From Escherichia coli (GTDB taxonomy: Bacteria > Pseudomonadota > Gammaproteobacteria > Enterobacterales > Enterobacteriaceae): 64,000 nt of DNA. Below, in pieces: positions 26,045-64,000 of the stretch. The position numbers were made by a program, and so were the translations under genes. The stretch is from assembly GCF_024502345.1 (NCBI RefSeq), contig NZ_JALDNN010000001.1. The stretch is one strand, 5' to 3'. A model generated the notes under the pieces. That model worked only from the letters and a program-made list of their open reading frames with translations, was not told the origin of the DNA and did no database searches. Positions within the stretch are counted from its first letter, which is position 1, and each line of letters begins with the position of its first letter.

Positions 26045-28413
<2,369 letters not shown>

Positions 28414-28686
28414 CCGTTTGGTCAGCATAGCATCATGTTGTGCGAATAAACACCTGCTATTTTAATATTTGTTACAGTGGCTAAACACGCTGACGCAGGG
28501 CGGCGAGAAAAAGAGAAGTTACTGGCTGGTGGAGGATTAGGTGGTGAAATAAAAAGGCCGTTGGGTTACTCTTCAGGCAGTTAAATGGGCATTTCTACAC
28601 AGAGAATGCGATGTTCAGATTCTGTAGACTTATAATGATAGATAATGATCCGTCTACAGCATGACAAACAAAAACAGATGCGTTAC

Positions 28687-54753: not shown

Positions 54754-55947
54754 TCAAATCTGTCGTAACTGCGCCTCAACATACAAATAGCCAATCCCCA
54801 ACACCTGTTGTGCGCGGCTTAATTGCCCAAAGCCAATTTGCGTTGCTTTCACGCTCGGCCCTTCGTCGCGGTCGAACGGGTTAAATCCCGTCTGGCGAAT
54901 AATGGTATTAAGCCAGTGCTCACCAAAGGCACAACTGCGACCGTACAACCAAATCTGATTAATATTGAGGATGTTGAGGAAGTTATACAGACTCAAACCA
55001 ATGGCATTGGCACTGCGATCAACCCAGCTGGTGATCCACGGTTCTCCACTCTGCCAGGCAGCGATTAACTGCGCGGTTGTCAGTTTTTCAGGATCAAGCT
55101 GAGTATTAACCGGTTGTGATTTTAGCCATACCCGCGCCTGTTTTTTTAATGCACTTAACGAGGCGACGGTTTCCAGGCAGCCGTAACGTCCACAGTCGCA
55201 GACGACGCCATCCGGATTAACGATGGTGTGACCAATCTGTCCGCTACCATACAAACTGCCGCGATAAATTTGCTCGTTAATCACGAACGACGAGCCAATG
55301 CCGTAATCAACGTTGATCACGCAGAAATCCCGTTCCTGCGAATTATTTTGCCATTTCTCCGCCAGCGCCAGCATCACGCAGTCATTATCGACCATCACCC
55401 GAATGCCCAGCTTCTCTTCCAGCAGATACTTCACCTCAACCGGCGTTGTCCACGGCGCTTGCGGCATGGTTTGCGACACGCCGGTCACCGGATCAACCTG
55501 ACCGTGGATTGCCAGCGCCAGATTGATGGTGCGGTCCGGCCACAATTTACGGTGGCGATGCCAGCATTTTTCGATTTCGGACAGCAGCGCCTGCGGCGTC
55601 GGTGCATCAATCTGTAAATACTCAAATTCACCTTTCGGACTTAAACAAGCATTAGCAACCTGACACTCAATACTGGTGGGCGTCACGTTCAGGCACAGCG
55701 TCCAGTCACCTTCCGGCGCAATCAGCCATGTACCGCTACTATGCCCGCGCGTCTGGCTTTCATCGTCGATATTCACCACCCGTTTTTCGCTTTCCAGTTC
55801 CTGCAAAATATTACTGACTGCCGGAATCGAAATTTGCGCCAGCCGGGCCAGCGTTGATTTATTGGCGCGCTTTTGCCGGTACAGCAGTTCCAGAATCACG
55901 CATTTGTTATGGTGGCGAATCTGTTGATTGTTAATGCAGGCTCTCAT
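54754..55947 (-). CDS. yphH: ROK-family (NagC/XylR-like) transcriptional regulator / sugar kinase homologue
   Basis: 397-aa protein MRACINNQQIRHHNKCVILELLYRQKRANKSTLARLAQISIPAVSNILQEL... with N-terminal HTH and ROK zinc motif CDCGRYGCLE; the GTG at 55953 is an alternative start. Confidence 0.8.
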   Translation of the reverse strand: MRACINNQQIRHHNKCVILELLYRQKRANKSTLARLAQISIPAVSNILQELESEKRVVNIDDESQTRGHSSGTWLIAPEGDWTLCLNVTPTSIECQVANACLSPKGEFEYLQIDAPTPQALLSEIEKCWHRHRKLWPDRTINLALAIHGQVDPVTGVSQTMPQAPWTTPVEVKYLLEEKLGIRVMVDNDCVMLALAEKWQNNSQERDFCVINVDYGIGSSFVINEQIYRGSLYGSGQIGHTIVNPDGVVCDCGRYGCLETVASLSALKKQARVWLKSQPVNTQLDPEKLTTAQLIAAWQSGEPWITSWVDRSANAIGLSLYNFLNILNINQIWLYGRSCAFGEHWLNTIIRQTGFNPFDRDEGPSVKATQIGFGQLSRAQQVLGIGYLYVEAQLRQI

Positions 55948-56064
55948 CTTCACTAAACCTTGTTTAGTTAATTGCGTGATTATTCCGCGAAAACATTGCC
56001 AGATTGTTCAATACACTGCCACAAATCTTTTAATTCAGTATGTCTTGTTAATATTGAGGGCACC

Positions 56065-59000
56065 ATGACTCCAGTAAAAGTGTGGCAAGAGCGCGTTGAG
56101 ATCCCGACCTATGAAACCGGGCCGCAGGATATACATCCCATGTTCCTGGAAAATCGCGTTTATCAGGGATCGTCCGGCGCGGTTTATCCCTACGGCGTGA
56201 CCGATACGCTGAGCGAGCAGAAAACCCCGAAATCCTGGCAGGCGGTGTGGCTGGAAAACGACTACATCAAAGTGATGATCCTGCCGGAACTGGGCGGTCG
56301 GGTGCATCGCGCATGGGATAAAGTGAAACAACGCGATTTTGTCTATCACAATGAAGTCATTAAACCTGCGCTGGTGGGGCTGCTGGGACCGTGGATCTCT
56401 GGCGGGATTGAGTTTAACTGGCCGCAACACCATCGCCCGACCACCTTTATGCCCGTTGATTTCACCCTCGAAGCCCATGAAGACGGCGCACAGACGGTGT
56501 GGGTCGGCGAAACGGAGCCGATGCACGGTTTACAGGTGATGACAGGTTTCACCCTGCGCCCTGACCGGGCGGCGCTGGAAATCGCCAGCCGCGTCTATAA
56601 CGGCAACGCCACGCCGCGTCATTTCTTGTGGTGGGCCAACCCGGCAGTGAAAGGGGGGGAAGGGCATCAGAGCGTTTTCCCGCCGGATGTGACTGCGGTG
56701 TTTGATCACGGCAAACGGGCCGTCTCCGCTTTCCCCATCGCCACCGGCACTTACTACAAAGTGGACTACTCCGCTGGAGTGGACATTTCTCGCTATAAAA
56801 ATGTGCCCGTTCCAACCTCATATATGGCCGAAAAATCGCAGTACGATTTTGTTGGCGCGTGGTGTCACGATGAAGATGGCGGTTTGCTACACGTTGCCAA
56901 CCACCATATTGCGCCAGGTAAAAAGCAGTGGAGCTGGGGACACAGTGAATTTGGCCAGGCGTGGGATAAGAGCCTAACTGATAATAACGGCCCGTATATC
57001 GAACTGATGACCGGTATTTTTGCCGATAACCAGCCCGATTTTACCTGGCTTGATGCTTACGAAGAGAAGCGTTTTGAGCAGTATTTCCTGCCTTATCATT
57101 CTTTGGGCATGGTGCAAAATGCCTCCCGCGATGCGGTGATAAAACTCCAGCGTAGTGAGCGGGGGATTGAGTGGGGGCTGTATGCCATCTCTCCGTTGAA
57201 CGGATACCGCCTGGCGATCCGCGAAATCGGCAAATGCAACGCGTTACTTGATGATGCCGTGGCACTGATGCCTGCGACCGCCATCCAGGGCGTGTTGCAC
57301 GGTATCAATCCTGAAAGGCTGACCATTGAGCTCTCCGATGCCGACGGCAATATTGTACTGAGTTATCAGGAACATCAGCCGCAAGAGTTGCCGTTGCCGG
57401 ACGTCGCCAAAGCGCCACTGGCAGCACAAGACATTACCAGTACAGATGAAGCCTGGTTTATCGGTCAGCATCTGGAGCAATATCATCACGCCAGCCGTTC
57501 ACCGTTCGATTACTACCTGCGCGGCGTGGCGCTGGATCCGCTGGATTACCGCTGTAACCTGGCGCTGGCGATGCTGGAATATAACCGCGCAGATTTCCCG
57601 CAAGCGGTGGCGTATGCCACTCAGGCTCTGAAACGCGCACATGGGCTGAACAAAAATCCGCAGTGCGGACAGGCGAGTTTGATTCGCGCCAGTGCTTACG
57701 AACGTCAGGGACAATATCAACAAGCCGAAGAGGATTTCTGGCGTGCGGTCTGGAGCGGCAACAGTAAAGCCGGAGGCTATTATGGTCTGGCACGACTGGC
57801 GGCGCGTAATGGTAACTTCGACGCGGGTCTGGATTTTTGCCAACAAAGTCTTCGCGCCAGCCCAACCAATCAGGAAGTGCTTTGCCTGCATAATCTGCTG
57901 CTGGTGTTAAGTGGTCGTCAGGACAACGCGCGTTTGCAGCGCGAGAAACTGCTGCGCGATTATCCGCTGAACGCCACTCTGTGGTGGCTGAACTGGTTCG
58001 ATGGTCGTAGCGAATCAGCTCTCGCGCAGTGGCGCGGTCTGTGTCAGGGACGCGACGTTAACGCCCTGATGACCGCCGGGCAACTGATTAACTGGGGAAT
58101 GCCCACCCTGGCGGCAGAGATGCTGAACGCACTGGACTGCCAGCGCACGCTGCCGCTTTACCTGCAAGCCAGCTTGCTGCCGAAAGCCGAACGTGGCGAA
58201 CTGGTCGCAAAAGCCATTGATGTCTTTCCGCAGTTTGTCCGTTTCCCGAATACGCTGGAAGAAGTGGCGGCGCTGGAGAGTATTGAAGAGTGCTGGTTTG
58301 CTCGCCATTTACTGGCCTGCTTCTACTACAACAAACGTAGCTACAACAAAGCCATTGCCTTATGGCAACGTTGCGTAGAGATGTCGCCGGAGTTTGCCGA
58401 CGGCTGGCGCGGGTTAGCGATCCATGCGTGGAATAAGCAACACGATTATGAGCTGGCCGCGCGTTATCTTGATAATGCTTATCAGCTTGCGCCGCAGGAT
58501 GCACGTCTGCTTTTCGAACGGGATTTGCTTGATAAGTTAAGTGGAGCCACACCGGAGAAACGACTGGCGCGTCTGGAAAATAATCTGGAAATTGCGCTGA
58601 AACGCGACGACATGACCGCAGAACTGCTCAATTTATGGCATCTCACGGGGCAGGCAGACAAAGCGGCGGACATTCTCGCCACGCGCAAATTCCACCCGTG
58701 GGAAGGCGGGGAAGGGAAGGTCACCAGTCAGTTTATCCTCAACCAGTTATTACGCGCCTGGCAGCATCTTGATGCCAGACAGCCGCAGCAGGCCAGCGAA
58801 CTGCTTCATGCCGCGCTGCATTATCCGGAGAATTTAAGCGAAGGCCGTTTACCGGGGCAAACTGATAACGACATCTGGTTCTGGCAGGCGATATGCGCCA
58901 ACGCGCAGGGCGATGAAACTGAAGCGACGCGTTGTTTACGTCTGGCGGTGACCGGCGATCGCACCATTAACATCCACAGTTATTACAACGATCAGCCGGT

Positions 59001-59346
59001 TGATTATCTCTTCTGGCAAGGAATGGCGCTGCGACTGCTGGGCGAACAACACACCGCACAGCAACTGTTTAGTGAAATGAAACAGTGGGCGCAAGAGATG
59101 GCGAAAACCAGTATTGAGGCGGATTTCTTTGCTGTTTCACAACCTGATCTGTTGTCGCTGTATGGCGATTTACAACAGCAGCATAAAGAAAAATGCCTGA
59201 TGGTGGCGATGCTGGCGTCCGCGGGACTCGGGGAGGTTGCGCAATATGAGTCTGCTCGCGCTGAATTGACGGCGATTAATCCGGCCTGGCCGAAAGCGGC
59301 ATTATTCACCACCGTGATGCCTTTTATTTTTAACCGCGTTCACTAA
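56065..59346 (+). CDS. yphG: Large uncharacterised protein with C-terminal TPR-like repeats
   Basis: ATG at 56065 gives the 1093-aa MTPVKVWQERVEIPTYETGPQD... protein; function unknown. Confidence 0.8.
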   Translation: MTPVKVWQERVEIPTYETGPQDIHPMFLENRVYQGSSGAVYPYGVTDTLSEQKTPKSWQAVWLENDYIKVMILPELGGRVHRAWDKVKQRDFVYHNEVIKPALVGLLGPWISGGIEFNWPQHHRPTTFMPVDFTLEAHEDGAQTVWVGETEPMHGLQVMTGFTLRPDRAALEIASRVYNGNATPRHFLWWANPAVKGGEGHQSVFPPDVTAVFDHGKRAVSAFPIATGTYYKVDYSAGVDISRYKNVPVPTSYMAEKSQYDFVGAWCHDEDGGLLHVANHHIAPGKKQWSWGHSEFGQAWDKSLTDNNGPYIELMTGIFADNQPDFTWLDAYEEKRFEQYFLPYHSLGMVQNASRDAVIKLQRSERGIEWGLYAISPLNGYRLAIREIGKCNALLDDAVALMPATAIQGVLHGINPERLTIELSDADGNIVLSYQEHQPQELPLPDVAKAPLAAQDITSTDEAWFIGQHLEQYHHASRSPFDYYLRGVALDPLDYRCNLALAMLEYNRADFPQAVAYATQALKRAHGLNKNPQCGQASLIRASAYERQGQYQQAEEDFWRAVWSGNSKAGGYYGLARLAARNGNFDAGLDFCQQSLRASPTNQEVLCLHNLLLVLSGRQDNARLQREKLLRDYPLNATLWWLNWFDGRSESALAQWRGLCQGRDVNALMTAGQLINWGMPTLAAEMLNALDCQRTLPLYLQASLLPKAERGELVAKAIDVFPQFVRFPNTLEEVAALESIEECWFARHLLACFYYNKRSYNKAIALWQRCVEMSPEFADGWRGLAIHAWNKQHDYELAARYLDNAYQLAPQDARLLFERDLLDKLSGATPEKRLARLENNLEIALKRDDMTAELLNLWHLTGQADKAADILATRKFHPWEGGEGKVTSQFILNQLLRAWQHLDARQPQQASELLHAALHYPENLSEGRLPGQTDNDIWFWQAICANAQGDETEATRCLRLAVTGDRTINIHSYYNDQPVDYLFWQGMALRLLGEQHTAQQLFSEMKQWAQEMAKTSIEADFFAVSQPDLLSLYGDLQQQHKEKCLMVAMLASAGLGEVAQYESARAELTAINPAWPKAALFTTVMPFIFNRVH

Positions 59347-59722
59347 ATCTTATTAACTGTAATATTTGAGCGGCACGCGCTGCCGCTCATCACAAAATAA
59401 TTAGAATAAGCCGTTGTAAATAAAAACCCTACAGGAGGCACTATGCCTAAAAAAATGAGAACAACCCGTAATTTATTATTAATGGCTACGCTATTGGGTA
59501 GCGCACTATTTGCCAACGCTGCGGATAAAGAAATGACCATTGGCGCAATATACCTTGATACCCAGGGATATTACGCTGGAGTGCGTCAGGGCGTTCAGGA
59601 TGCGGCAAAAGATTCTTCAGTACAGGTACAGTTAATTGAAACTAACGCCCAGGGTGATATTTCGAAAGAAAGTACCTTTGTTGATACCCTCGTGGCGCGT
59701 AATGTCGATGCCATTATTTTAT

Positions 59723-59731
59723 CGGCAGTGT
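59723..59731. repeat. 9-bp target-site duplication (left copy) of the IS insertion
   Basis: CGGCAGTGT immediately left of the IS left inverted repeat; identical copy at 60789..60797. Confidence 0.9.
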
Positions 59732-60788
59732 GGCTTTGTTGAATAAATCGAACTTTTGCTGAGTTGAAGGATCAGATCACGTATCTTCCCGACAACGCAG
59801 ACCGTTCCGTGGCAAAGCAAAAGTTCAAAATCACCAACTGGCCCACCTACAATAAAGCCCTCATCAACCGTGGCTCCATAACTTTCTGGCTGGATGATGA
59901 AGCTATTCAGGCCTGGTATGAGTCAGCAACACCTTCTTCACGAGGCAGACCTCAGCGCTATTCTGACCTTGCCATCACGACTGTGCTGGTCATTAAACGC
60001 GTATTCAGGCTGACCCTGCGCGCTGCGCAGGGCTTTATTGATTCCATTTTTTCTCTGATGAACGTTCCGCTACGCTGCCCGGATTACAGCTGTGTCAGCA
60101 GGCGGGCAAAGTCGGTTAATGTCAGTTTCAAAACGCCCACCCGGGGTGAAATCGCACACCTGGTAATTGATTCCACCGGGCTGAAGGTCTTCGGTGAAGG
60201 CGAGTGGAAAGTCAAAAAGCATGGCCAGGAACGCCGCCGTATCTGGCGTAAGCTGCATCTCGCCGTTGACAGTAAAACACATGAAATCATCTGCGCTGAC
60301 CTGTCGCTGAACAACGTTACGGACTCAGAGGCCTTCCCCGGGTTAATCCGGCAAACCCACCGGAAAATCAGGTCAGCCGCCGCCGATGGCGCTTACGATA
60401 CCCGGCTATGTCACGATGAACTGCGGCGTAAGAAAATCAGCGCGCTTATCCCTCCCCGAAAAGGTGCGGGTTACTGGCCCGGTGAATATGCAGACCGTAA
60501 CCGTGCAGTGGCTAATCAGCGAATGACCGGGAGTAATGCGCGGTGGAAATGGACAACAGATTACAACCGTCGCTCGATAGCGGAAACGGCGATGTACCGG
60601 GTAAAACAGCTGTTCGGGGGTTCACTGACACTGCGTGACTACGATGGTCAGGTTGCAGAGGCTATGGCCCTGGTACGAGCGCTGAACAAAATGACGAAAG
60701 CAGGTATGCCTGAAAGCGTGCGTATTGCCTGAAAACACAACCCGCTACGGGGGAGACTTACCCGAAATCTGATTTATTCAACAAAGCC
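59732..60788 (+). mobile_element. IS903-family insertion sequence (IS5 family, IS903 group), 1057 bp, complete
   Basis: 18-bp perfect terminal inverted repeats GGCTTTGTTGAATAAATC (59732..59749 and, inverted, 60771..60788); 1057 bp; 9-bp flanking direct repeats; single 307-aa DDE transposase ORF. Matches the canonical IS903 description (1057 bp, 18-bp IRs, 9-bp duplication). Confidence 0.92.
59809..60732 (+). CDS. IS903-family DDE transposase
   Basis: GTG at 59809 gives 307 aa (M)AKQKFKITNWPTYNKALINRGSITFWLDDEAIQAWYESATPSSRGRPQRYSDLAITTVL... with acidic residues in LVIDSTG, AADGAYD and RSIAETAMYRVKQ; the track ORF from 59764 is an N-terminal over-extension. Confidence 0.9.
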   Translation: MAKQKFKITNWPTYNKALINRGSITFWLDDEAIQAWYESATPSSRGRPQRYSDLAITTVLVIKRVFRLTLRAAQGFIDSIFSLMNVPLRCPDYSCVSRRAKSVNVSFKTPTRGEIAHLVIDSTGLKVFGEGEWKVKKHGQERRRIWRKLHLAVDSKTHEIICADLSLNNVTDSEAFPGLIRQTHRKIRSAAADGAYDTRLCHDELRRKKISALIPPRKGAGYWPGEYADRNRAVANQRMTGSNARWKWTTDYNRRSIAETAMYRVKQLFGGSLTLRDYDGQVAEAMALVRALNKMTKAGMPESVRIA

Positions 60789-60797
60789 CGGCAGTGT
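60789..60797. repeat. 9-bp target-site duplication (right copy) of the IS insertion
   Basis: CGGCAGTGT immediately right of the IS right inverted repeat. Confidence 0.9.
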
Positions 60798-61514
60798 CTG
60801 AAAATGGCAGTAGCCGTACCGTTCGTCGCGCCAGTGAAGCGGGTATTCCGGTGATTTGCTACAACACCTGTATTAATCAAAAGGGGGTCGATAAATATGT
60901 CTCGGCGTATCTGGTCGGCGATCCGCTGGAATTTGGTAAAAAACTGGGTAACGCTGCCGCCGATTATTTTATTGCCAATAAAATTGACCAGCCGAAAATT
61001 GCCGTCATCAATTGCGAAGCCTTTGAAGTTTGTGTGCAGCGACGTAAAGGATTTGAAGAAGTATTAAAATCCCGCGTTCCCGGCGCGCAAATTGTCGCTA
61101 ATCAGGAAGGGACTGTTTTAGATAAAGCGATTTCCGTTGGTGAAAAACTGATTATCTCCACGCCGGATCTCAACGCCATTATGGGGGAGTCGGGCGGTGC
61201 GACACTCGGCGCGGTAAAAGCGGTACGTAATCAAAATCAGGCCGGAAAAATTGCTGTTTTCGGTTCGGATATGACAACCGAAATTGCTCAGGAGCTGGAA
61301 AACAATCAGGTGCTGAAAGCGGTAGTGGATATTTCCGGTAAGAAAATGGGCAATGCTGTTTTCGCGCAAACATTGAAGGTTATCAATAAACAAGCCGACG
61401 GTGAAAAAGTGATTCAGGTGCCAATCGATCTCTATACCAAAACGGAAGATGGTAAACAGTGGCTGGCAACGCACGTTGATGGTCTGCCCTAATCGCTGAT
61501 TCGCAGAGGTCCCT

Positions 61515-63026
61515 ATGTTCACGGCAACAGAGGCAGTCCCGGTAGCAAAAGTGGTGGCAGGAAATAAGCGTTACCCCGGCGTCGTTGCGCTGGATAACGT
61601 TAACTTCACGCTCAATAAAGGCGAAGTTCGTGCGCTGTTAGGTAAAAACGGCGCGGGCAAATCGACTCTCATTCGAATGCTTACCGGCAGCGAACGCCCG
61701 GATAGCGGTGATATCTGGATTGGCGAGACGCGACTGGAAGGTGACGAAGCTACGTTGACTCGCCGTGCCGCTGAACTGGGGGTTCGTGCGGTTTATCAGG
61801 AGTTAAGTCTGGTGGAGGGACTGACGGTGGCGGAAAACCTCTGCCTCGGTCAGTGGCCCCGCCGCAACGGCATGATTGATTACCTGCAAATGGCGCAGGA
61901 TGCCCAACGTTGCTTACAGGCGCTGGGCGTTGACGTTAGCCCTGAACAACTTGTTTCAACGCTAAGCCCGGCGCAAAAGCAACTGGTGGAAATTGCGCGG
62001 GTGATGAAGGGCGAGCCGCGCGTGGTCATTCTTGATGAACCTACCAGTTCGCTTGCCAGTGCGGAAGTTGAACTGGTGATCAGCGCGGTGAAAAAGATGT
62101 CGGCACTGGGCGTGGCGGTAATTTATGTCAGCCACCGGATGGAAGAAATTCGCCGCATTGCCTCCTGTGCCACTGTTATGCGCGATGGTCAGGTGGCGGG
62201 CGATGTGATGCTCGAAAACACCTCCACGCATCATATTGTGTCGCTAATGCTAGGGCGTGATCACGTTGATATTGCGCCGGTAGCCCCTCAGGAAATTGTG
62301 GATCAGGCCGTGCTGGAAGTCCGTGCATTACGCCATAAGCCCAAGCTGGAGGATATCAGCTTTACGTTACGTCGCGGCGAAGTGCTTGGCATTGCTGGCC
62401 TGCTGGGGGCAGGGCGCAGTGAATTGCTGAAGGCGATTGTTGGGCTGGAGACGTATGAACAGGGCGAAATTGTTATCAACGGCGAGAAAATCACGCGCCC
62501 CGATTACGGCGACATGCTGAAACGCGGCATTGGCTATACGCCAGAAAACCGCAAAGAAGTGGGGATCATTCCCTGGTTGGGCGTTGACGAAAATACAGTG
62601 CTGACCAATCGGCAAAAAATCAGCGCCAACGGAGTGCTGCAATGGTCCACCATCCGCCGCCTGACCGAAGAGGTGATGCAGCGGATGACGGTCAAGGCCG
62701 CCAGTAGCGAAACGCCCATCGGCACGCTTTCTGGTGGCAATCAGCAAAAAGTGGTGATCGGTCGTTGGGTCTATGCCGCCAGCCAGATTTTGTTGCTCGA
62801 CGAGCCAACGCGCGGCGTCGATATCGAAGCCAAACAGCAGATTTACCGTATTGTCCGTGAGCTGGCTGCCGAAGGAAAAAGCGTGGTGTTTATCTCCAGT
62901 GAAGTGGAGGAGTTGCCGCTGGTGTGCGACCGCATCCTGTTGTTACAGCACGGTACGTTCTCGCAGGAGTTTCACTCGCCGGTCAATGTGGATGAGCTGA
63001 TGTCCGCCATTCTGTCTGTGCACTGA
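61515..63026 (+). CDS. yphE: ABC transporter ATP-binding protein (two fused ATPase domains, sugar-importer type)
   Basis: 503-aa ORF with two Walker A motifs (GKNGAGKST, GLLGAGRSEL) and signature LSGGNQQK. Confidence 0.88.
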   Translation: MFTATEAVPVAKVVAGNKRYPGVVALDNVNFTLNKGEVRALLGKNGAGKSTLIRMLTGSERPDSGDIWIGETRLEGDEATLTRRAAELGVRAVYQELSLVEGLTVAENLCLGQWPRRNGMIDYLQMAQDAQRCLQALGVDVSPEQLVSTLSPAQKQLVEIARVMKGEPRVVILDEPTSSLASAEVELVISAVKKMSALGVAVIYVSHRMEEIRRIASCATVMRDGQVAGDVMLENTSTHHIVSLMLGRDHVDIAPVAPQEIVDQAVLEVRALRHKPKLEDISFTLRRGEVLGIAGLLGAGRSELLKAIVGLETYEQGEIVINGEKITRPDYGDMLKRGIGYTPENRKEVGIIPWLGVDENTVLTNRQKISANGVLQWSTIRRLTEEVMQRMTVKAASSETPIGTLSGGNQQKVVIGRWVYAASQILLLDEPTRGVDIEAKQQIYRIVRELAAEGKSVVFISSEVEELPLVCDRILLLQHGTFSQEFHSPVNVDELMSAILSVH

Positions 63027-63050
63027 TGAATTTTACCGAGGAACCTGAAG

Positions 63051-64000
63051 ATGTCTGCTTCGTCATTATCATTGCCGCAGGGCAAGAGCGTCTCGCTCAA
63101 ACAATTTGTCAGTCGCCATATTAATGAGATCGGTTTGCTGGTGGTAATCGCCATTCTTTATCTGGTCTTCTCCCTGAACGCGCCTGGCTTTATCTCATTG
63201 AATAACCAGATGAACGTGCTGCGCGATGCCGCCACCATTGGGATTGCCGCCTGGGCGATGACGCTGATTATTATCTCCGGTGAAATTGATGTCAGCGTTG
63301 GGCCGATGGTGGCTTTTGTCTCGGTGTGCCTGGCATTTTTGCTGCAATTTGAAGTTCCGCTGGCGGTGGCGTGTCTGCTGGTGTTGCTGTTAGGCGCGCT
63401 GATGGGAACGCTCGCCGGGGTGCTGCGCGGCGTGTTTAACGTACCAAGTTTCGTTGCCACACTGGGGCTGTGGAGCGCCCTGCGCGGAATGGGGCTGTTT
63501 ATGACCAACGCACTGCCAGTGCCGATTGACGAAAACGAGGTGCTGGACTGGCTGGGCGGACAATTTCTCGGTGTGCCAGTATCCGCGCTGATCATGATGG
63601 TGTTGTTTGCGCTGTTTGTGTTCATTAGCCGAAAAACCGCCTTCGGGCGCTCGGTTTTTGCCGTTGGCGGTAATGCCACGGCGGCGCAGTTGTGCGGTAT
63701 TAACGTTCGTCGGGTGCGCATTCTTATCTTTACCCTTTCGGGATTATTAGCGGCGGTGACCGGCATTTTGCTGGCGGCACGCCTCGGTTCCGGTAACGCA
63801 GGTGCCGCAAACGGTCTGGAGTTTGACGTCATCGCTGCGGTCGTGGTCGGCGGTACGGCACTTTCCGGCGGTCGCGGTTCCCTGTTCGGTACATTGCTTG
63901 GTGTGCTGGTGATTACGCTAATCGGTAACGGTCTGGTGCTGCTCGGTATTAACTCCTTTTTCCAGCAGGTGGTACGCGGCGTCATCATCGTGGTGGCGGT
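63051..64000 (+). CDS. yphD: ABC transporter permease (ribose/xylose-type), C-terminus beyond window end
   Basis: ATG at 63051; translation MSASSLSLPQGKSVSLKQFVSRHINEIGLLVVIAILYLVFSLNAPGF... stays open to the window end; multi-pass membrane protein; not in the ORF track because no stop is reached. Confidence 0.82.
   Translation, partial: MSASSLSLPQGKSVSLKQFVSRHINEIGLLVVIAILYLVFSLNAPGFISLNNQMNVLRDAATIGIAAWAMTLIIISGEIDVSVGPMVAFVSVCLAFLLQFEVPLAVACLLVLLLGALMGTLAGVLRGVFNVPSFVATLGLWSALRGMGLFMTNALPVPIDENEVLDWLGGQFLGVPVSALIMMVLFALFVFISRKTAFGRSVFAVGGNATAAQLCGINVRRVRILIFTLSGLLAAVTGILLAARLGSGNAGAANGLEFDVIAAVVVGGTALSGGRGSLFGTLLGVLVITLIGNGLVLLGINSFFQQVVRGVIIVVA

What the first reader, a model, noticed from the sequence alone, without database searches (positions are those of the whole stretch)
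54754..64000. yphH–yphG–yphFED: poorly characterised sugar-uptake locus, here inactivated at its binding protein
A ROK-family regulator (yphH) diverges from a 1093-aa TPR-like protein of unknown function (yphG), followed by a sugar-type ABC importer (yphF binding protein, yphE double-ATPase, yphD permease). No substrate or physiological role is established for this cluster to my knowledge. In this genome the binding-protein gene is split by the IS, so the transporter is probably non-functional. This is the least understood DNA in the window, though it is conserved core sequence rather than a new system.
Basis: inference. Interest (0 to 1): 0.4.

Follow-up and report, generated by a model that had tools for sequence, protein, structure and literature searches.

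The report
IS-disrupted E. coli yph sugar locus
This is the conserved but still uncharacterised E. coli yph sugar-uptake operon, knocked out here by a recent IS903B jump into its binding-protein gene; its one puzzling part, the 1093-residue YphG, is predicted to be a sugar-mutarotase-like domain fused to a long helical repeat and to belong to a very large family of unknown function.

Summary
Window 54754-64000 holds yphH (ROK regulator, minus strand), yphG (1093 aa), yphF split at codon 97, yphE (double ATPase) and yphD (cut by the window end).

The inserted element is a 1057-bp IS903B with perfect 18-bp inverted ends and a 9-bp target duplication. Removing it restores an intact yphF. None of 5,426 complete E. 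coli genomes shares this junction, while yphF is present in 5,416 of them, so the insertion is recent and strain-specific.

No substrate or function turned up in the literature, Pfam or NCBIfam.

New here:
- The N-terminal domain is the most conserved part of the protein.
- Across 80 genomes from four phyla, cytoplasmic YphG orthologues sit beside a regulator (ROK or AraC) and a monosaccharide importer (MFS or ABC).
- Many also sit beside a canonical mutarotase and, outside the Enterobacterales, beside exo-galactosidases.

I read the locus as an uptake and conversion module for a galactose-type sugar, disabled here. The locus itself is ordinary; YphG's chemistry is open.

The parts
54754..55947 (-). 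yphH, ROK-family transcriptional regulator (397 aa): N-terminal winged HTH plus ROK sugar-binding/kinase-like domain
   Evidence: ORF. Pfam ROK E=1e-32, with MarR/HTH_24 at residues 16-54. RefSeq name yphH. One residue differs from the reference. Below the NagC and Mlc equivalog cut-offs.
55950..55979 (.). Conserved ~30-bp block in the yphH-yphG spacer. It includes the perfect palindrome ACTAAACCTTGTTTAGT (55952-55968) and an invariant GCGTGA (55974-55979). Candidate YphH operator.
   Evidence: Conserved in 17 loci from E. coli to Aeromonas while the rest of the spacer diverges. Single perfect match in the window. The function is inferred, not tested.
56065..59346 (+). yphG, 1093 aa, no signal peptide. 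Residues 1-345 form an aldose-1-epimerase-fold domain (DUF5107), ~346-455 a small beta-sandwich, and ~456-1092 a TPR solenoid.
59367..59389 (+). GC-rich 9-bp stem-loop in the 96-nt yphG-yphF spacer, with no U tract
   Evidence: RNA fold of the spacer: -23.3 kcal/mol, z = -2.85. Not called as an intrinsic terminator.
59443..59731 (+). yphF 5' fragment (codons 1-96 plus one base), including the Sec signal peptide. It reads into the IS and stops at 59742, giving a 99-aa product.
   Evidence: The reference YphF is Peripla_BP_4.
59723..59731 (.). Left copy of the 9-bp target-site duplication CGGCAGTGT
   Evidence: Read from the sequence.
59732..60788 (+). IS903B (IS5 family, IS903 group), 1057 bp. 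The 18-bp inverted repeats lie at 59732-59749 and 60771-60788. The transposase ORF is 59764-60732, in the same orientation as the operon.
   Evidence: Inverted repeats. DDE_Tnp_1_5 and DDE_Tnp_1 domains. 100% identical over the full length to plasmid copies annotated IS903B.
60789..60797 (.). Right copy of the 9-bp target-site duplication CGGCAGTGT
   Evidence: Read from the sequence.
60798..61492 (+). yphF 3' fragment (codons 97-327); it has no signal peptide of its own
   Evidence: The reconstruction gives an intact 327-aa YphF.
61515..63026 (+). yphE, fused double ABC ATPase (503 aa), intact
   Evidence: Two ABC_tran domains. The best NCBIfam matches are AraG, XylG, AlsA and MglA, all below their cut-offs. 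Three residues differ from the reference.
63051..64000 (+). yphD, BPD_transp_2 permease; residues 1-316 of 332, cut by the window end

Best explanation
The region is the E. coli yph operon: a regulator-controlled module that imports a neutral monosaccharide and converts it in the cytoplasm.

Proposed roles:
- YphH, a ROK repressor-type protein, is read divergently from yphG and probably acts at a conserved palindromic block next to its own start codon.
- yphG-yphFED-yphCB is read in the other direction.
- YphFED is a binding-protein-dependent monosaccharide (CUT2-type) ABC importer.
- YphG is the signature cytoplasmic protein of the module. Its N-terminal aldose-1-epimerase-fold domain most likely binds the imported sugar and carries out acid/base chemistry at the anomeric carbon (ring opening, and interconversion of anomers or ring forms). 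The TPR solenoid buttresses this domain.
- YphB, a canonical mutarotase, and in the E. coli version YphC, a Zn-dependent polyol/sugar dehydrogenase, act alongside.

Gene neighbourhoods in other phyla point to a galactose-type sugar, the product of exo-alpha- and exo-beta-galactosidases.

In this genome a recent IS903B insertion at codon 97 of yphF removes the periplasmic binding protein. It is probably also polar on yphEDCB. Uptake through this system is therefore lost, while yphH and yphG stay intact.

Status of each step:
- Shown: gene content, the IS anatomy, the YphG fold, and the conserved gene context.
- Inferred: loss of transport, YphG catalysis, the identity of the sugar, and the operator.
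For: Locus and IS:
- Searches give the coordinates, domains, 18-bp inverted repeats, 9-bp duplication, 100% identity to IS903B, and an intact yphF after in-silico excision.
- The junction is absent from 5,426 complete E. coli genomes.

Operon:
- Spacers downstream of yphF are 11-32 nt.
- YphG and the transporter genes are adjacent on the same strand in 13 of 16 gammaproteobacterial loci.

YphG fold and conservation:
- Model pLDDT 95, pTM 0.93.
- 67 of 345 N-domain columns are >=90% conserved across 116 sequences that share only 25-82% identity with E. coli YphG (mean column identity 25%). These include E313 (invariant), H122, H123, H215, D208 and Y311.
- There is no signal peptide in E. coli or in the 64 closest orthologues from other phyla.

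Gene context in 80 genomes:
- A ROK or AraC regulator in 58.
- An MFS sugar porter or CUT2 ABC importer in 52.
- A canonical aldose epimerase in 22.
- GH2 (BT4151-like exo-beta-1,4-galactosidase type), GH35, GH36 or GH97 in 38.
- Only 10 loci have neither a transporter nor such a glycosidase.

Further context:
- The transporter type is swapped (ABC versus MFS) at the same chromosomal site in Klebsiella, while YphG and the epimerase stay.
- In Bacteroidota the neighbouring galactosidases carry signal peptides, whereas YphG and the GalM-like protein do not. YphG therefore meets the imported monosaccharide.
Against: - No experiment links any yph gene to a sugar. The binding protein's closest relatives (AlsB, MglB, LsrB, RbsB) are all far below their family cut-offs.
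- The sequence profile of YphG does not match the aldose-epimerase family (hhalign probability <1%). The correspondence of H122/H123, H215 and E313 to the catalytic His/His/Glu of mutarotases rests on their order and spacing only; I could not superpose coordinates.
- A canonical mutarotase is often encoded next to YphG, which makes a plain anomerase role look redundant.
- A 600-residue TPR solenoid is unusual for a small-molecule enzyme and is typical of protein-protein interaction.
- Enterobacterial loci lack galactosidases, so the galactose inference is imported from other phyla.
- The 96-nt yphG-yphF spacer holds a stable hairpin, so yphF may have its own promoter or be attenuated.
- IS903B is oriented with the operon, so some read-through into yphED cannot be excluded.
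Confidence: 0.6

Rival explanations
1. YphG is a non-catalytic sugar sensor or scaffold. The mutarotase-fold domain only binds the sugar. The TPR solenoid then binds a partner protein such as the regulator, the transporter's cytoplasmic face or a kinase. This would control the operon in the way Mlc, another ROK regulator, is controlled by sequestration rather than by a small ligand.
For: - About 600 residues of bona fide TPR repeats.
- YphG is almost always encoded next to a divergent regulator (58 of 80 loci).
- YphH belongs to the Mlc/NagC family; that Mlc is regulated by protein binding is established knowledge.
- A canonical mutarotase is often already present in the locus.
Against: - The partner regulator changes family (ROK in gammaproteobacteria, AraC with its own ligand-binding domain elsewhere) while YphG stays about 40% identical over its full length. 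This argues against a specific regulator-YphG pair.
- The pattern of invariant His, Glu, Asp, Asn and Tyr residues in the N-domain is that of an active site.
- Distant paralogues carry signal peptides, which is hard to fit with a cytoplasmic signalling role.
- The polar residues conserved in the TPR part are few.
Confidence: 0.17
2. YphG is a new kind of cytoplasmic glycoside hydrolase, or another glycoside-cleaving enzyme. It would act on a small imported glycoside, for example a galactoside such as glyceryl- or methyl-galactoside. The released sugar would then be anomerised by YphB or GalM.
For: - Pairing of a glycosidase with a mutarotase is common (lacZ/galM, yihQ/yihR; established knowledge).
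- Family members occur with and without signal peptides, as is typical of glycosidases.
- The neighbours are glycosidases, esterases and sulfatases of glycan-utilisation loci.
- Conserved acidic residues lie in loops of the helical part (E818, E880 in FHPWEGGEG).
Against: - The transporters coupled to YphG are of monosaccharide types: a CUT2 ABC importer and an XylE-like sugar porter.
- In Bacteroidota the periplasmic exo-galactosidases already release monosaccharide before import.
- Structural similarity is clearly highest to true mutarotases.
- The most conserved part is the beta-sandwich, not the helical domain that carries the catalytic centre in GH15, GH65 and PL8-type enzymes.
Confidence: 0.15
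3. The yph locus is a cryptic, decaying remnant in E. coli with no current function, and the IS insertion is just one more step in its loss.
For: - No phenotype or substrate has been reported in decades of K-12 work.
- IS elements have hit the transporter genes independently in at least three strains: this one, ET670 in yphE, and EH10-18-47 in yphF.
Against: - The region is retained in 5,368 of 5,426 complete genomes, and yphF matches at >=80% coverage in one place in 5,392.
- All the other yph reading frames here are full length, with 0-12 substitutions.
- YphF protein and yphD mRNA are detectably regulated (PMC8753852; PMC8597633).
- Orthologous modules are conserved across phyla.
Confidence: 0.05

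Closest known systems
E. coli K-12 yphH / yphG-yphFED-yphCB locus, as annotated in RefSeq and EcoCyc as a 'putative sugar ABC transporter'
   Same: Same genes, same order and same flanks (glyA upstream). Nucleotide identity to complete E. coli genomes is 97-99%, with 0-12 amino-acid changes per protein.
   Different: Here yphF is interrupted at codon 97 by IS903B. This junction occurs in none of 5,426 complete genomes.
Monosaccharide (CUT2-type) ABC importers: RbsBAC, AlsBAC, AraFGH, MglBAC, XylFGH, YtfQRT-YjfF
   Same: A Peripla_BP_4 binding protein with a signal peptide, a fused double ATPase and a BPD_transp_2 permease. These are the best NCBIfam relatives.
   Different: All scores are far below the equivalog cut-offs (for example AlsB 64 bits against 335, and AraG 454 against 689). 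The substrate is unknown and the closest solved binding protein is 5hsg, which carries no functional name. In many relatives the importer is replaced by an XylE-like MFS porter.
Aldose 1-epimerases (GalM, YeaD, yeast hexose-6-phosphate mutarotase, E. coli YphB = PDB 3NRE)
   Different: Only 8-15% identity. The domain falls in Pfam DUF5107, not PF01263, and no profile-profile match is found. It is fused to a second beta domain and a ~600-residue TPR solenoid, making the protein three to four times larger. Activity is untested.
BDI_1685 of Parabacteroides distasonis (PDB 5CD6, a structural-genomics 'TPR-domain containing protein')
   Different: It has 575 residues and lacks the C-terminal ~500 residues of TPR solenoid. 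Identity is 21%, and no function or publication was found.
Mlc and NagC, the ROK-family repressors of E. coli
   Same: YphH has the same two-part build, an N-terminal winged HTH plus a ROK domain, and is described as the third, uncharacterised ROK repressor of E. coli (PMC4288165).
   Different: It scores 109-112 bits against cut-offs of 530-650. Its linker motif differs from the GR motif of most ROK repressors. Its operator and effector are unknown; a candidate operator is proposed here.
IS903 / IS903B (IS5 family)
   Same: 1057 bp, 18-bp terminal inverted repeats, a 9-bp target duplication and a DDE transposase. It is 100% identical to annotated IS903B copies on plasmids of Citrobacter, Salmonella and E. 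coli.
   Different: Nothing unusual. It is the only copy in the window.

Membership tests
Binding-protein-dependent monosaccharide ABC importer (CUT2 type) | Periplasmic binding protein of the Peripla_BP_4/RbsB type with a cleavable signal peptide | tested here: met
   The reconstructed YphF matches Peripla_BP_4 at E=2e-33 and has the N-terminus MPKKMRTTRNLLLMATLLGSALFANA/AD. In this genome the gene is split, so the protein is not made.
Binding-protein-dependent monosaccharide ABC importer (CUT2 type) | A single polypeptide with two ABC ATPase domains | tested here: met
   YphE has two ABC_tran stretches in 503 aa. Its best relatives are AraG, XylG, AlsA and MglA.
Binding-protein-dependent monosaccharide ABC importer (CUT2 type) | BPD_transp_2 (RbsC/AraH-like) permease | tested here: met
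   YphD matches PF02653 at E=8e-36 (reference copy). The window holds residues 1-316 of 332.
Binding-protein-dependent monosaccharide ABC importer (CUT2 type) | A demonstrated sugar substrate | not testable with these tools
   No equivalog match and no report in the literature.
ROK-family transcriptional repressor (NagC/Mlc type) | N-terminal DNA-binding winged HTH followed by a ROK domain | tested here: met
   ROK at E=1e-32 (residues 115-341). MarR/HTH_24 matches at residues 16-54 are weak and below the Pfam cut-offs.
ROK-family transcriptional repressor (NagC/Mlc type) | Orthology to NagC or Mlc | tested here: not met
   112 and 109 bits against curated cut-offs of 650 and 530. A published phylogeny places it in a separate small clade.
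ROK-family transcriptional repressor (NagC/Mlc type) | A palindromic operator in the regulated promoter region | tested here: inconclusive
   A perfect 7-3-7 palindrome lies within a ~30-bp block conserved from E. coli to Aeromonas. Binding was not tested.
Aldose 1-epimerase (mutarotase) family, for the YphG N-terminal domain | Mutarotase beta-sandwich fold | tested here: met
Aldose 1-epimerase (mutarotase) family, for the YphG N-terminal domain | Sequence membership in PF01263 (Aldose_epim) | tested here: not met
   Pfam assigns DUF5107 only. hhalign against the YphB and GalM-like neighbours gives a probability below 1%.
Aldose 1-epimerase (mutarotase) family, for the YphG N-terminal domain | Catalytic His/His/Asp/Glu constellation in the sugar pocket | tested here: inconclusive
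   H122/H123, H215, D208 and E313 are >=90% conserved or invariant and occur in the expected order. No coordinate superposition was possible.
Aldose 1-epimerase (mutarotase) family, for the YphG N-terminal domain | Mutarotase activity | not testable with these tools
   An enzyme assay is needed.
TPR repeat proteins, for the YphG C-terminal part | Tandem 34-residue helix-turn-helix repeats forming a solenoid | tested here: met
   TPR_16, TPR_2, TPR_1 and TPR_14 matches. Matches to consensus TPR structures. Paired helices throughout residues 460-1092 of the model.
IS903 group of the IS5 family | About 1.06 kb, 18-bp terminal inverted repeats, a 9-bp target duplication and a single DDE transposase | tested here: met
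   1057 bp, perfect 18-bp inverted repeats, TSD CGGCAGTGT, DDE_Tnp_1_5 and DDE_Tnp_1 domains, and 100% identity to IS903B.

The most novel reading that the evidence does not exclude
YphG founds a large, unrecognised family of cytoplasmic carbohydrate-converting enzymes: 3,934 sequence clusters at 50% identity match its first 460 residues, and the closest ones keep the full-length build. Each has a catalytic mutarotase-fold domain clamped by a TPR solenoid. The family would perform a so-far unknown step in the assimilation of galactose-type sugars, between exo-galactosidase or importer action and the central pathways. Orthologues occur in Proteobacteria, Bacteroidota, Firmicutes and Bifidobacterium. 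If so, E. coli has carried an uncharacterised sugar pathway in plain sight.
Probability: 0.3. Interest if true: 0.65.

Novelty: already known. Interest (0 to 1): 0.35.

Why it matters
The IS insertion itself is routine genome decay in one strain.

The value lies in YphG. It is a core E. coli protein of 1093 residues with no known role. It represents thousands of homologues in gut, soil and marine sugar-degrading bacteria, and it is tightly linked to sugar importers, mutarotases and galactosidases.

The fold assignment and the conserved gene context turn 'unknown TPR protein' into a testable proposal: a sugar-binding, probably catalytic protein acting on an imported galactose-type monosaccharide. 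Confirming a substrate would fill one of the remaining gaps in E. coli sugar metabolism. It would also annotate a frequent component of glycan-utilisation loci in Bacteroidota and Firmicutes.

This strain, with a clean natural knockout of the binding protein, is a ready comparison partner for strains with an intact yphF.

Tried and rejected
- Literature. Searches for yphG, yphF, yphE, yphD, yphH, DUF5107, b2549, BDI_1685, 5CD6, operon-style names, and 'mutarotase-like' with 'tetratricopeptide' gave no functional study. The hits were these:\n - YphF protein rises 3-4.6-fold on levoglucosan versus fructose, together with XylF, MalE, MglA, UgpB, UgpC and YtfQ. I read this as general catabolite de-repression (my interpretation), not as substrate evidence.\n - A yphD deletion lowers starvation-induced antibiotic tolerance.\n - yphG is used as a Klebsiella PCR target.\n- First AlphaFold run. 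A shallow alignment (40 sequences, >=53% identity) left the N-domain unmodelled, with pLDDT 25-45. It was discarded in favour of a run with 68 diverse sequences.\n- Profile-profile comparison. YphG against YphB and GalM-type neighbours was not significant, so homology to mutarotases rests on structure only.\n- Promoter and terminator scans. They found no more sites than in shuffled sequence and none at the expected places.\n- CRP site. I looked for one in the conserved GCGTGA block. The second half-site does not fit, so I dropped the idea.\n- Second operator. A copy of the palindrome at the yphG/yphF junction has 3 mismatches and is not distinguishable from chance.\n- Naming the sugar. I tried to name it from the binding protein, the MFS porter or YphC through NCBIfam. 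All matches are sub-threshold and spread over allose, galactose, ribose, AI-2, xylose, threonine and inosose families.\n- The afdb50 fold library was not available.

Full report
**What is there**

The ORF map and megablast against 5,426 complete E. coli genomes identify the region as the yph locus next to glyA. The parts are:
- yphH at 54754-55947 (-).
- yphG at 56065-59346 (+).
- An interrupted yphF (59443-59731 and 60798-61492).
- yphE at 61515-63026.
- yphD from 63051, cut by the window end at residue 316 of 332.

Pfam confirms the domain content:
- YphH has a ROK domain and a weak N-terminal winged HTH.
- YphG has DUF5107 (residues 39-324) and several TPR families.
- YphF is Peripla_BP_4.
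- YphE has two ABC_tran domains.
- YphD is BPD_transp_2.

In reference genomes the operon continues with yphC (Zn-dependent dehydrogenase) and yphB (aldose 1-epimerase). yphA (DoxX) follows on the other strand. The exact YphG and YphE sequences are on record from E. coli (WP_060659609.1), so the window is E. coli.

**The insertion**

The element at 59732-60788 is 1057 bp. It has perfect 18-bp terminal inverted repeats, a 322-codon DDE transposase ORF in the same orientation as the operon, and a 9-bp target duplication, CGGCAGTGT. It is 100% identical over its whole length to plasmid copies annotated IS903B.

Removing it together with one copy of the duplication restores a 327-residue YphF. That protein has its signal peptide and differs from a reference at one residue. 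As it stands, the gene can give only a 99-residue fragment, and the 3' part has no export signal.

No complete E. coli genome has this junction. yphF is present in 5,416 of 5,426 genomes and matches at >=80% coverage in one place in 5,392. The event is therefore recent and private to this lineage.

Independent hits in the same transporter genes do occur. A 94%-identical IS903-group element with its own 9-bp duplication sits in yphE of strain ET670. An IS1 sits in yphF of strain EH10-18-47.

Loss of the binding protein should abolish uptake by an SBP-dependent importer, and polarity on yphEDCB is likely. Both points are inference.

**State of knowledge**

Full-text searches found no substrate, regulon or enzymology for any yph gene.
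- YphH is cited as the third, uncharacterised ROK repressor of E. coli (PMC4288165).
- yphFED is listed as a 'putative ABC transporter, sugar' (PMC10305011).
- YphF protein rises on levoglucosan versus fructose, together with several other sugar- and glycerol-3-phosphate-binding transporter proteins (PMC8753852).
- A yphD deletion lowers starvation-induced antibiotic tolerance (PMC8597633).
- No yph protein reaches an NCBIfam equivalog cut-off in the June 2026 release.

**YphG: structure**

YphG has no signal peptide. A first model from a shallow alignment failed in the N-terminal third. A second model, from 68 diverse homologues, is confident throughout, with mean pLDDT 95 and pTM 0.93. It shows:
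- a beta-sandwich at residues 1-345;
- a smaller beta domain at about 346-455;
- an all-helical TPR solenoid from about 460 to 1092.

At the sequence level the relationship is invisible. I therefore treat it as shared fold, not as family membership.

**YphG: conservation and spread**

A full scan of 1.84 billion cluster representatives with residues 1-460 found 3,934 relatives at E <= 1e-3 and 882 at E <= 1e-30. Most of the best 150 hits are about 1,000-1,170 residues long.

Across 116 sequences sharing 25-82% identity with the E. coli protein, 67 of the 345 N-domain columns are >=90% conserved. The figures are 1 of 110 in the second beta domain and 19 of 580 in the TPR part up to residue 1035.

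The conserved set is rich in active-site-type residues. E313 is invariant. H122, H123, R124, H215, D208, Y311, N179, N192 and the DNQPD motif at 321-325 are also conserved. Their order (His, His, Asp, Glu) parallels the mutarotase catalytic set, but I could not superpose coordinates.

A few polar positions are conserved in TPR loops, for example E880 in FHPWEGGEG.

**YphG: gene context**

In Aeromonas, Serratia and K. oxytoca the locus reads ROK <-> YphG - MFS sugar porter - aldose epimerase. K. pasteurii has the E. coli arrangement with ABC importer, Zn-dehydrogenase and epimerase at the same chromosomal site. The importer and YphC thus form an exchangeable cassette, while YphG, the regulator and the epimerase stay.

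A scan of one genome per species returned 80 loci. They come from Enterobacterales, Aeromonas, Photobacterium, Bacteroidota, Firmicutes and Bifidobacterium, all full length at about 40% identity or more.

I clustered the five genes on each side and named the clusters with Pfam and NCBIfam:
- An AraC or ROK regulator in 58 of 80 loci, mostly divergent and adjacent.
- An XylE-like MFS porter in 42 and a CUT2 ABC system in 11 (52 loci with either).
- A canonical aldose epimerase in 22.
- A GH2 in 30. These fall in the subfamily of PDB 8U01, called GH2_20 beta-galactosidases in PMC12243196. Their best NCBIfam model is the BT4151-type exo-beta-1,4-galactosidase.
- GH35 in 9, GH36 in 5 and GH97 in 3.
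- Only 10 loci, several of them truncated, have neither a transporter nor such a glycosidase.

The 64 orthologues outside the gammaproteobacteria start directly at the conserved V-K-x-W-E-E motif, with no signal peptide. The neighbouring GH2, GH35, GH36 and GH97 enzymes have signal peptides in Bacteroidota but none in Firmicutes and Bifidobacterium.

In Bacteroidota the logic is therefore: periplasmic exo-galactosidases release a monosaccharide, the MFS porter imports it, and cytoplasmic YphG (often with a GalM-like enzyme) handles it. The minimal unit AraC <-> MFS - YphG recurs without any kinase, isomerase or aldolase. This suggests that one YphG-dependent step is enough to feed a mainstream pathway.

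More distant paralogues (27-31% identity) often carry signal or lipoprotein peptides.

**Interpretation**

The best-supported reading is that yph is an uptake and conversion module for a neutral, probably galacto-configured monosaccharide. YphG would be the conserved cytoplasmic converting protein, using mutarotase-type chemistry at the anomeric centre. YphB and YphC would be accessory. YphH would be the repressor.

The rivals are:
- a non-catalytic sensor or scaffold role for YphG, favoured by the TPR solenoid but weakened by the change of regulator family;
- a new glycoside-cleaving activity, favoured by the exported paralogues and the glycan-locus context but weakened by the monosaccharide-type transporters and by the closer similarity to true mutarotases;
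- a cryptic, decaying locus, contradicted by its near-universal retention.

The identity of the sugar and the reaction remain unproven.

**Regulatory features**

The yphH-yphG spacer contains a perfect palindrome, ACTAAACCTTGTTTAGT (55952-55968), 5 nt from the yphH start codon. It lies inside a ~30-bp block with an invariant GCGTGA. That block is conserved in 17 loci from E. coli to Aeromonas while the rest of the spacer diverges. A TAnAnT hexamer (56012-56017) is also conserved. This is a candidate YphH operator and promoter, and it is untested.

The 96-nt yphG-yphF spacer folds into a 9-bp GC stem-loop without a U tract. Co-transcription of yphG with yphFEDCB is therefore likely but may be modulated. 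The spacers downstream are 11-32 nt.

**Verdict**

The locus and the IS are known kinds of things, and the insertion is an ordinary strain-specific knockout.

The added value is the structural and comparative description of YphG, which makes its function testable. I score overall interest as modest at 0.35. I give 0.3 probability that YphG represents a new carbohydrate-converting enzyme family.

Noticed in passing
window 55950-55979 and 56012-56017: A perfect 7-3-7 palindrome, ACTAAACCTTGTTTAGT, abuts the yphH start codon. It lies within a ~30-bp block (invariant GCGTGA) conserved from E. coli to Aeromonas. A conserved TAnAnT hexamer (-10-like) lies downstream. Together they are a candidate YphH operator and yphG promoter.
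   Followed up: partly
window 59367-59389: A stable 9-bp GC stem-loop without a U tract lies in the yphG-yphF spacer (fold z = -2.85). It could be an attenuator, a processing site or an mRNA stabiliser between yphG and the transporter genes.
   Followed up: partly
L001 9565-10621 (E. coli ET670); hit H39 (E. coli EH10-18-47): Independent IS insertions occur in the same transporter genes of other strains. ET670 has a 1057-bp IS903-group element (94% identical, TSD GCGAAGTTC) inside yphE. EH10-18-47 has an IS1 inside yphF.
   Followed up: partly
L005 (K. oxytoca) versus L008 (K. pasteurii): At the same chromosomal site (glyA - yphA - ROK - yphG), two Klebsiella species carry different downstream cassettes. 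One has an MFS porter plus epimerase. The other has an ABC importer plus Zn-dehydrogenase plus epimerase. The transporter module has been swapped behind a constant yphG.
   Followed up: yes
Proteins P0212, P0245, P0263, P0248, P0254, P0235 and others: Distant YphG-family members (27-31% identity) carry signal or lipoprotein peptides. The closest orthologues in all phyla are cytoplasmic. The family thus has exported and cytoplasmic branches.
   Followed up: partly
L034, L047, L056, L065, L085, L089 (marine Flavobacteriia): A recurrent block reads sulfatase - MFS - GDSL esterase - GH2 - YphG homologue - sulfatases - GH2, often with a GH30 gene upstream. It looks like a dedicated locus for a sulfated, acetylated galactan. 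The substrate is unknown.
   Followed up: no
L030, L074, L075, L079 (cluster c21, ~720-750 aa): A protein of about 750 residues with no Pfam or NCBIfam match is encoded next to MFS and YphG in four Bacteroidota loci.
   Followed up: no
window 28406-28422: A one-mismatch copy of the yphH palindrome (ACTAAACACCGTTTGGT) lies elsewhere in the window. The number of matches at up to 3 mismatches is no more than chance predicts, so it is probably meaningless.
   Followed up: no
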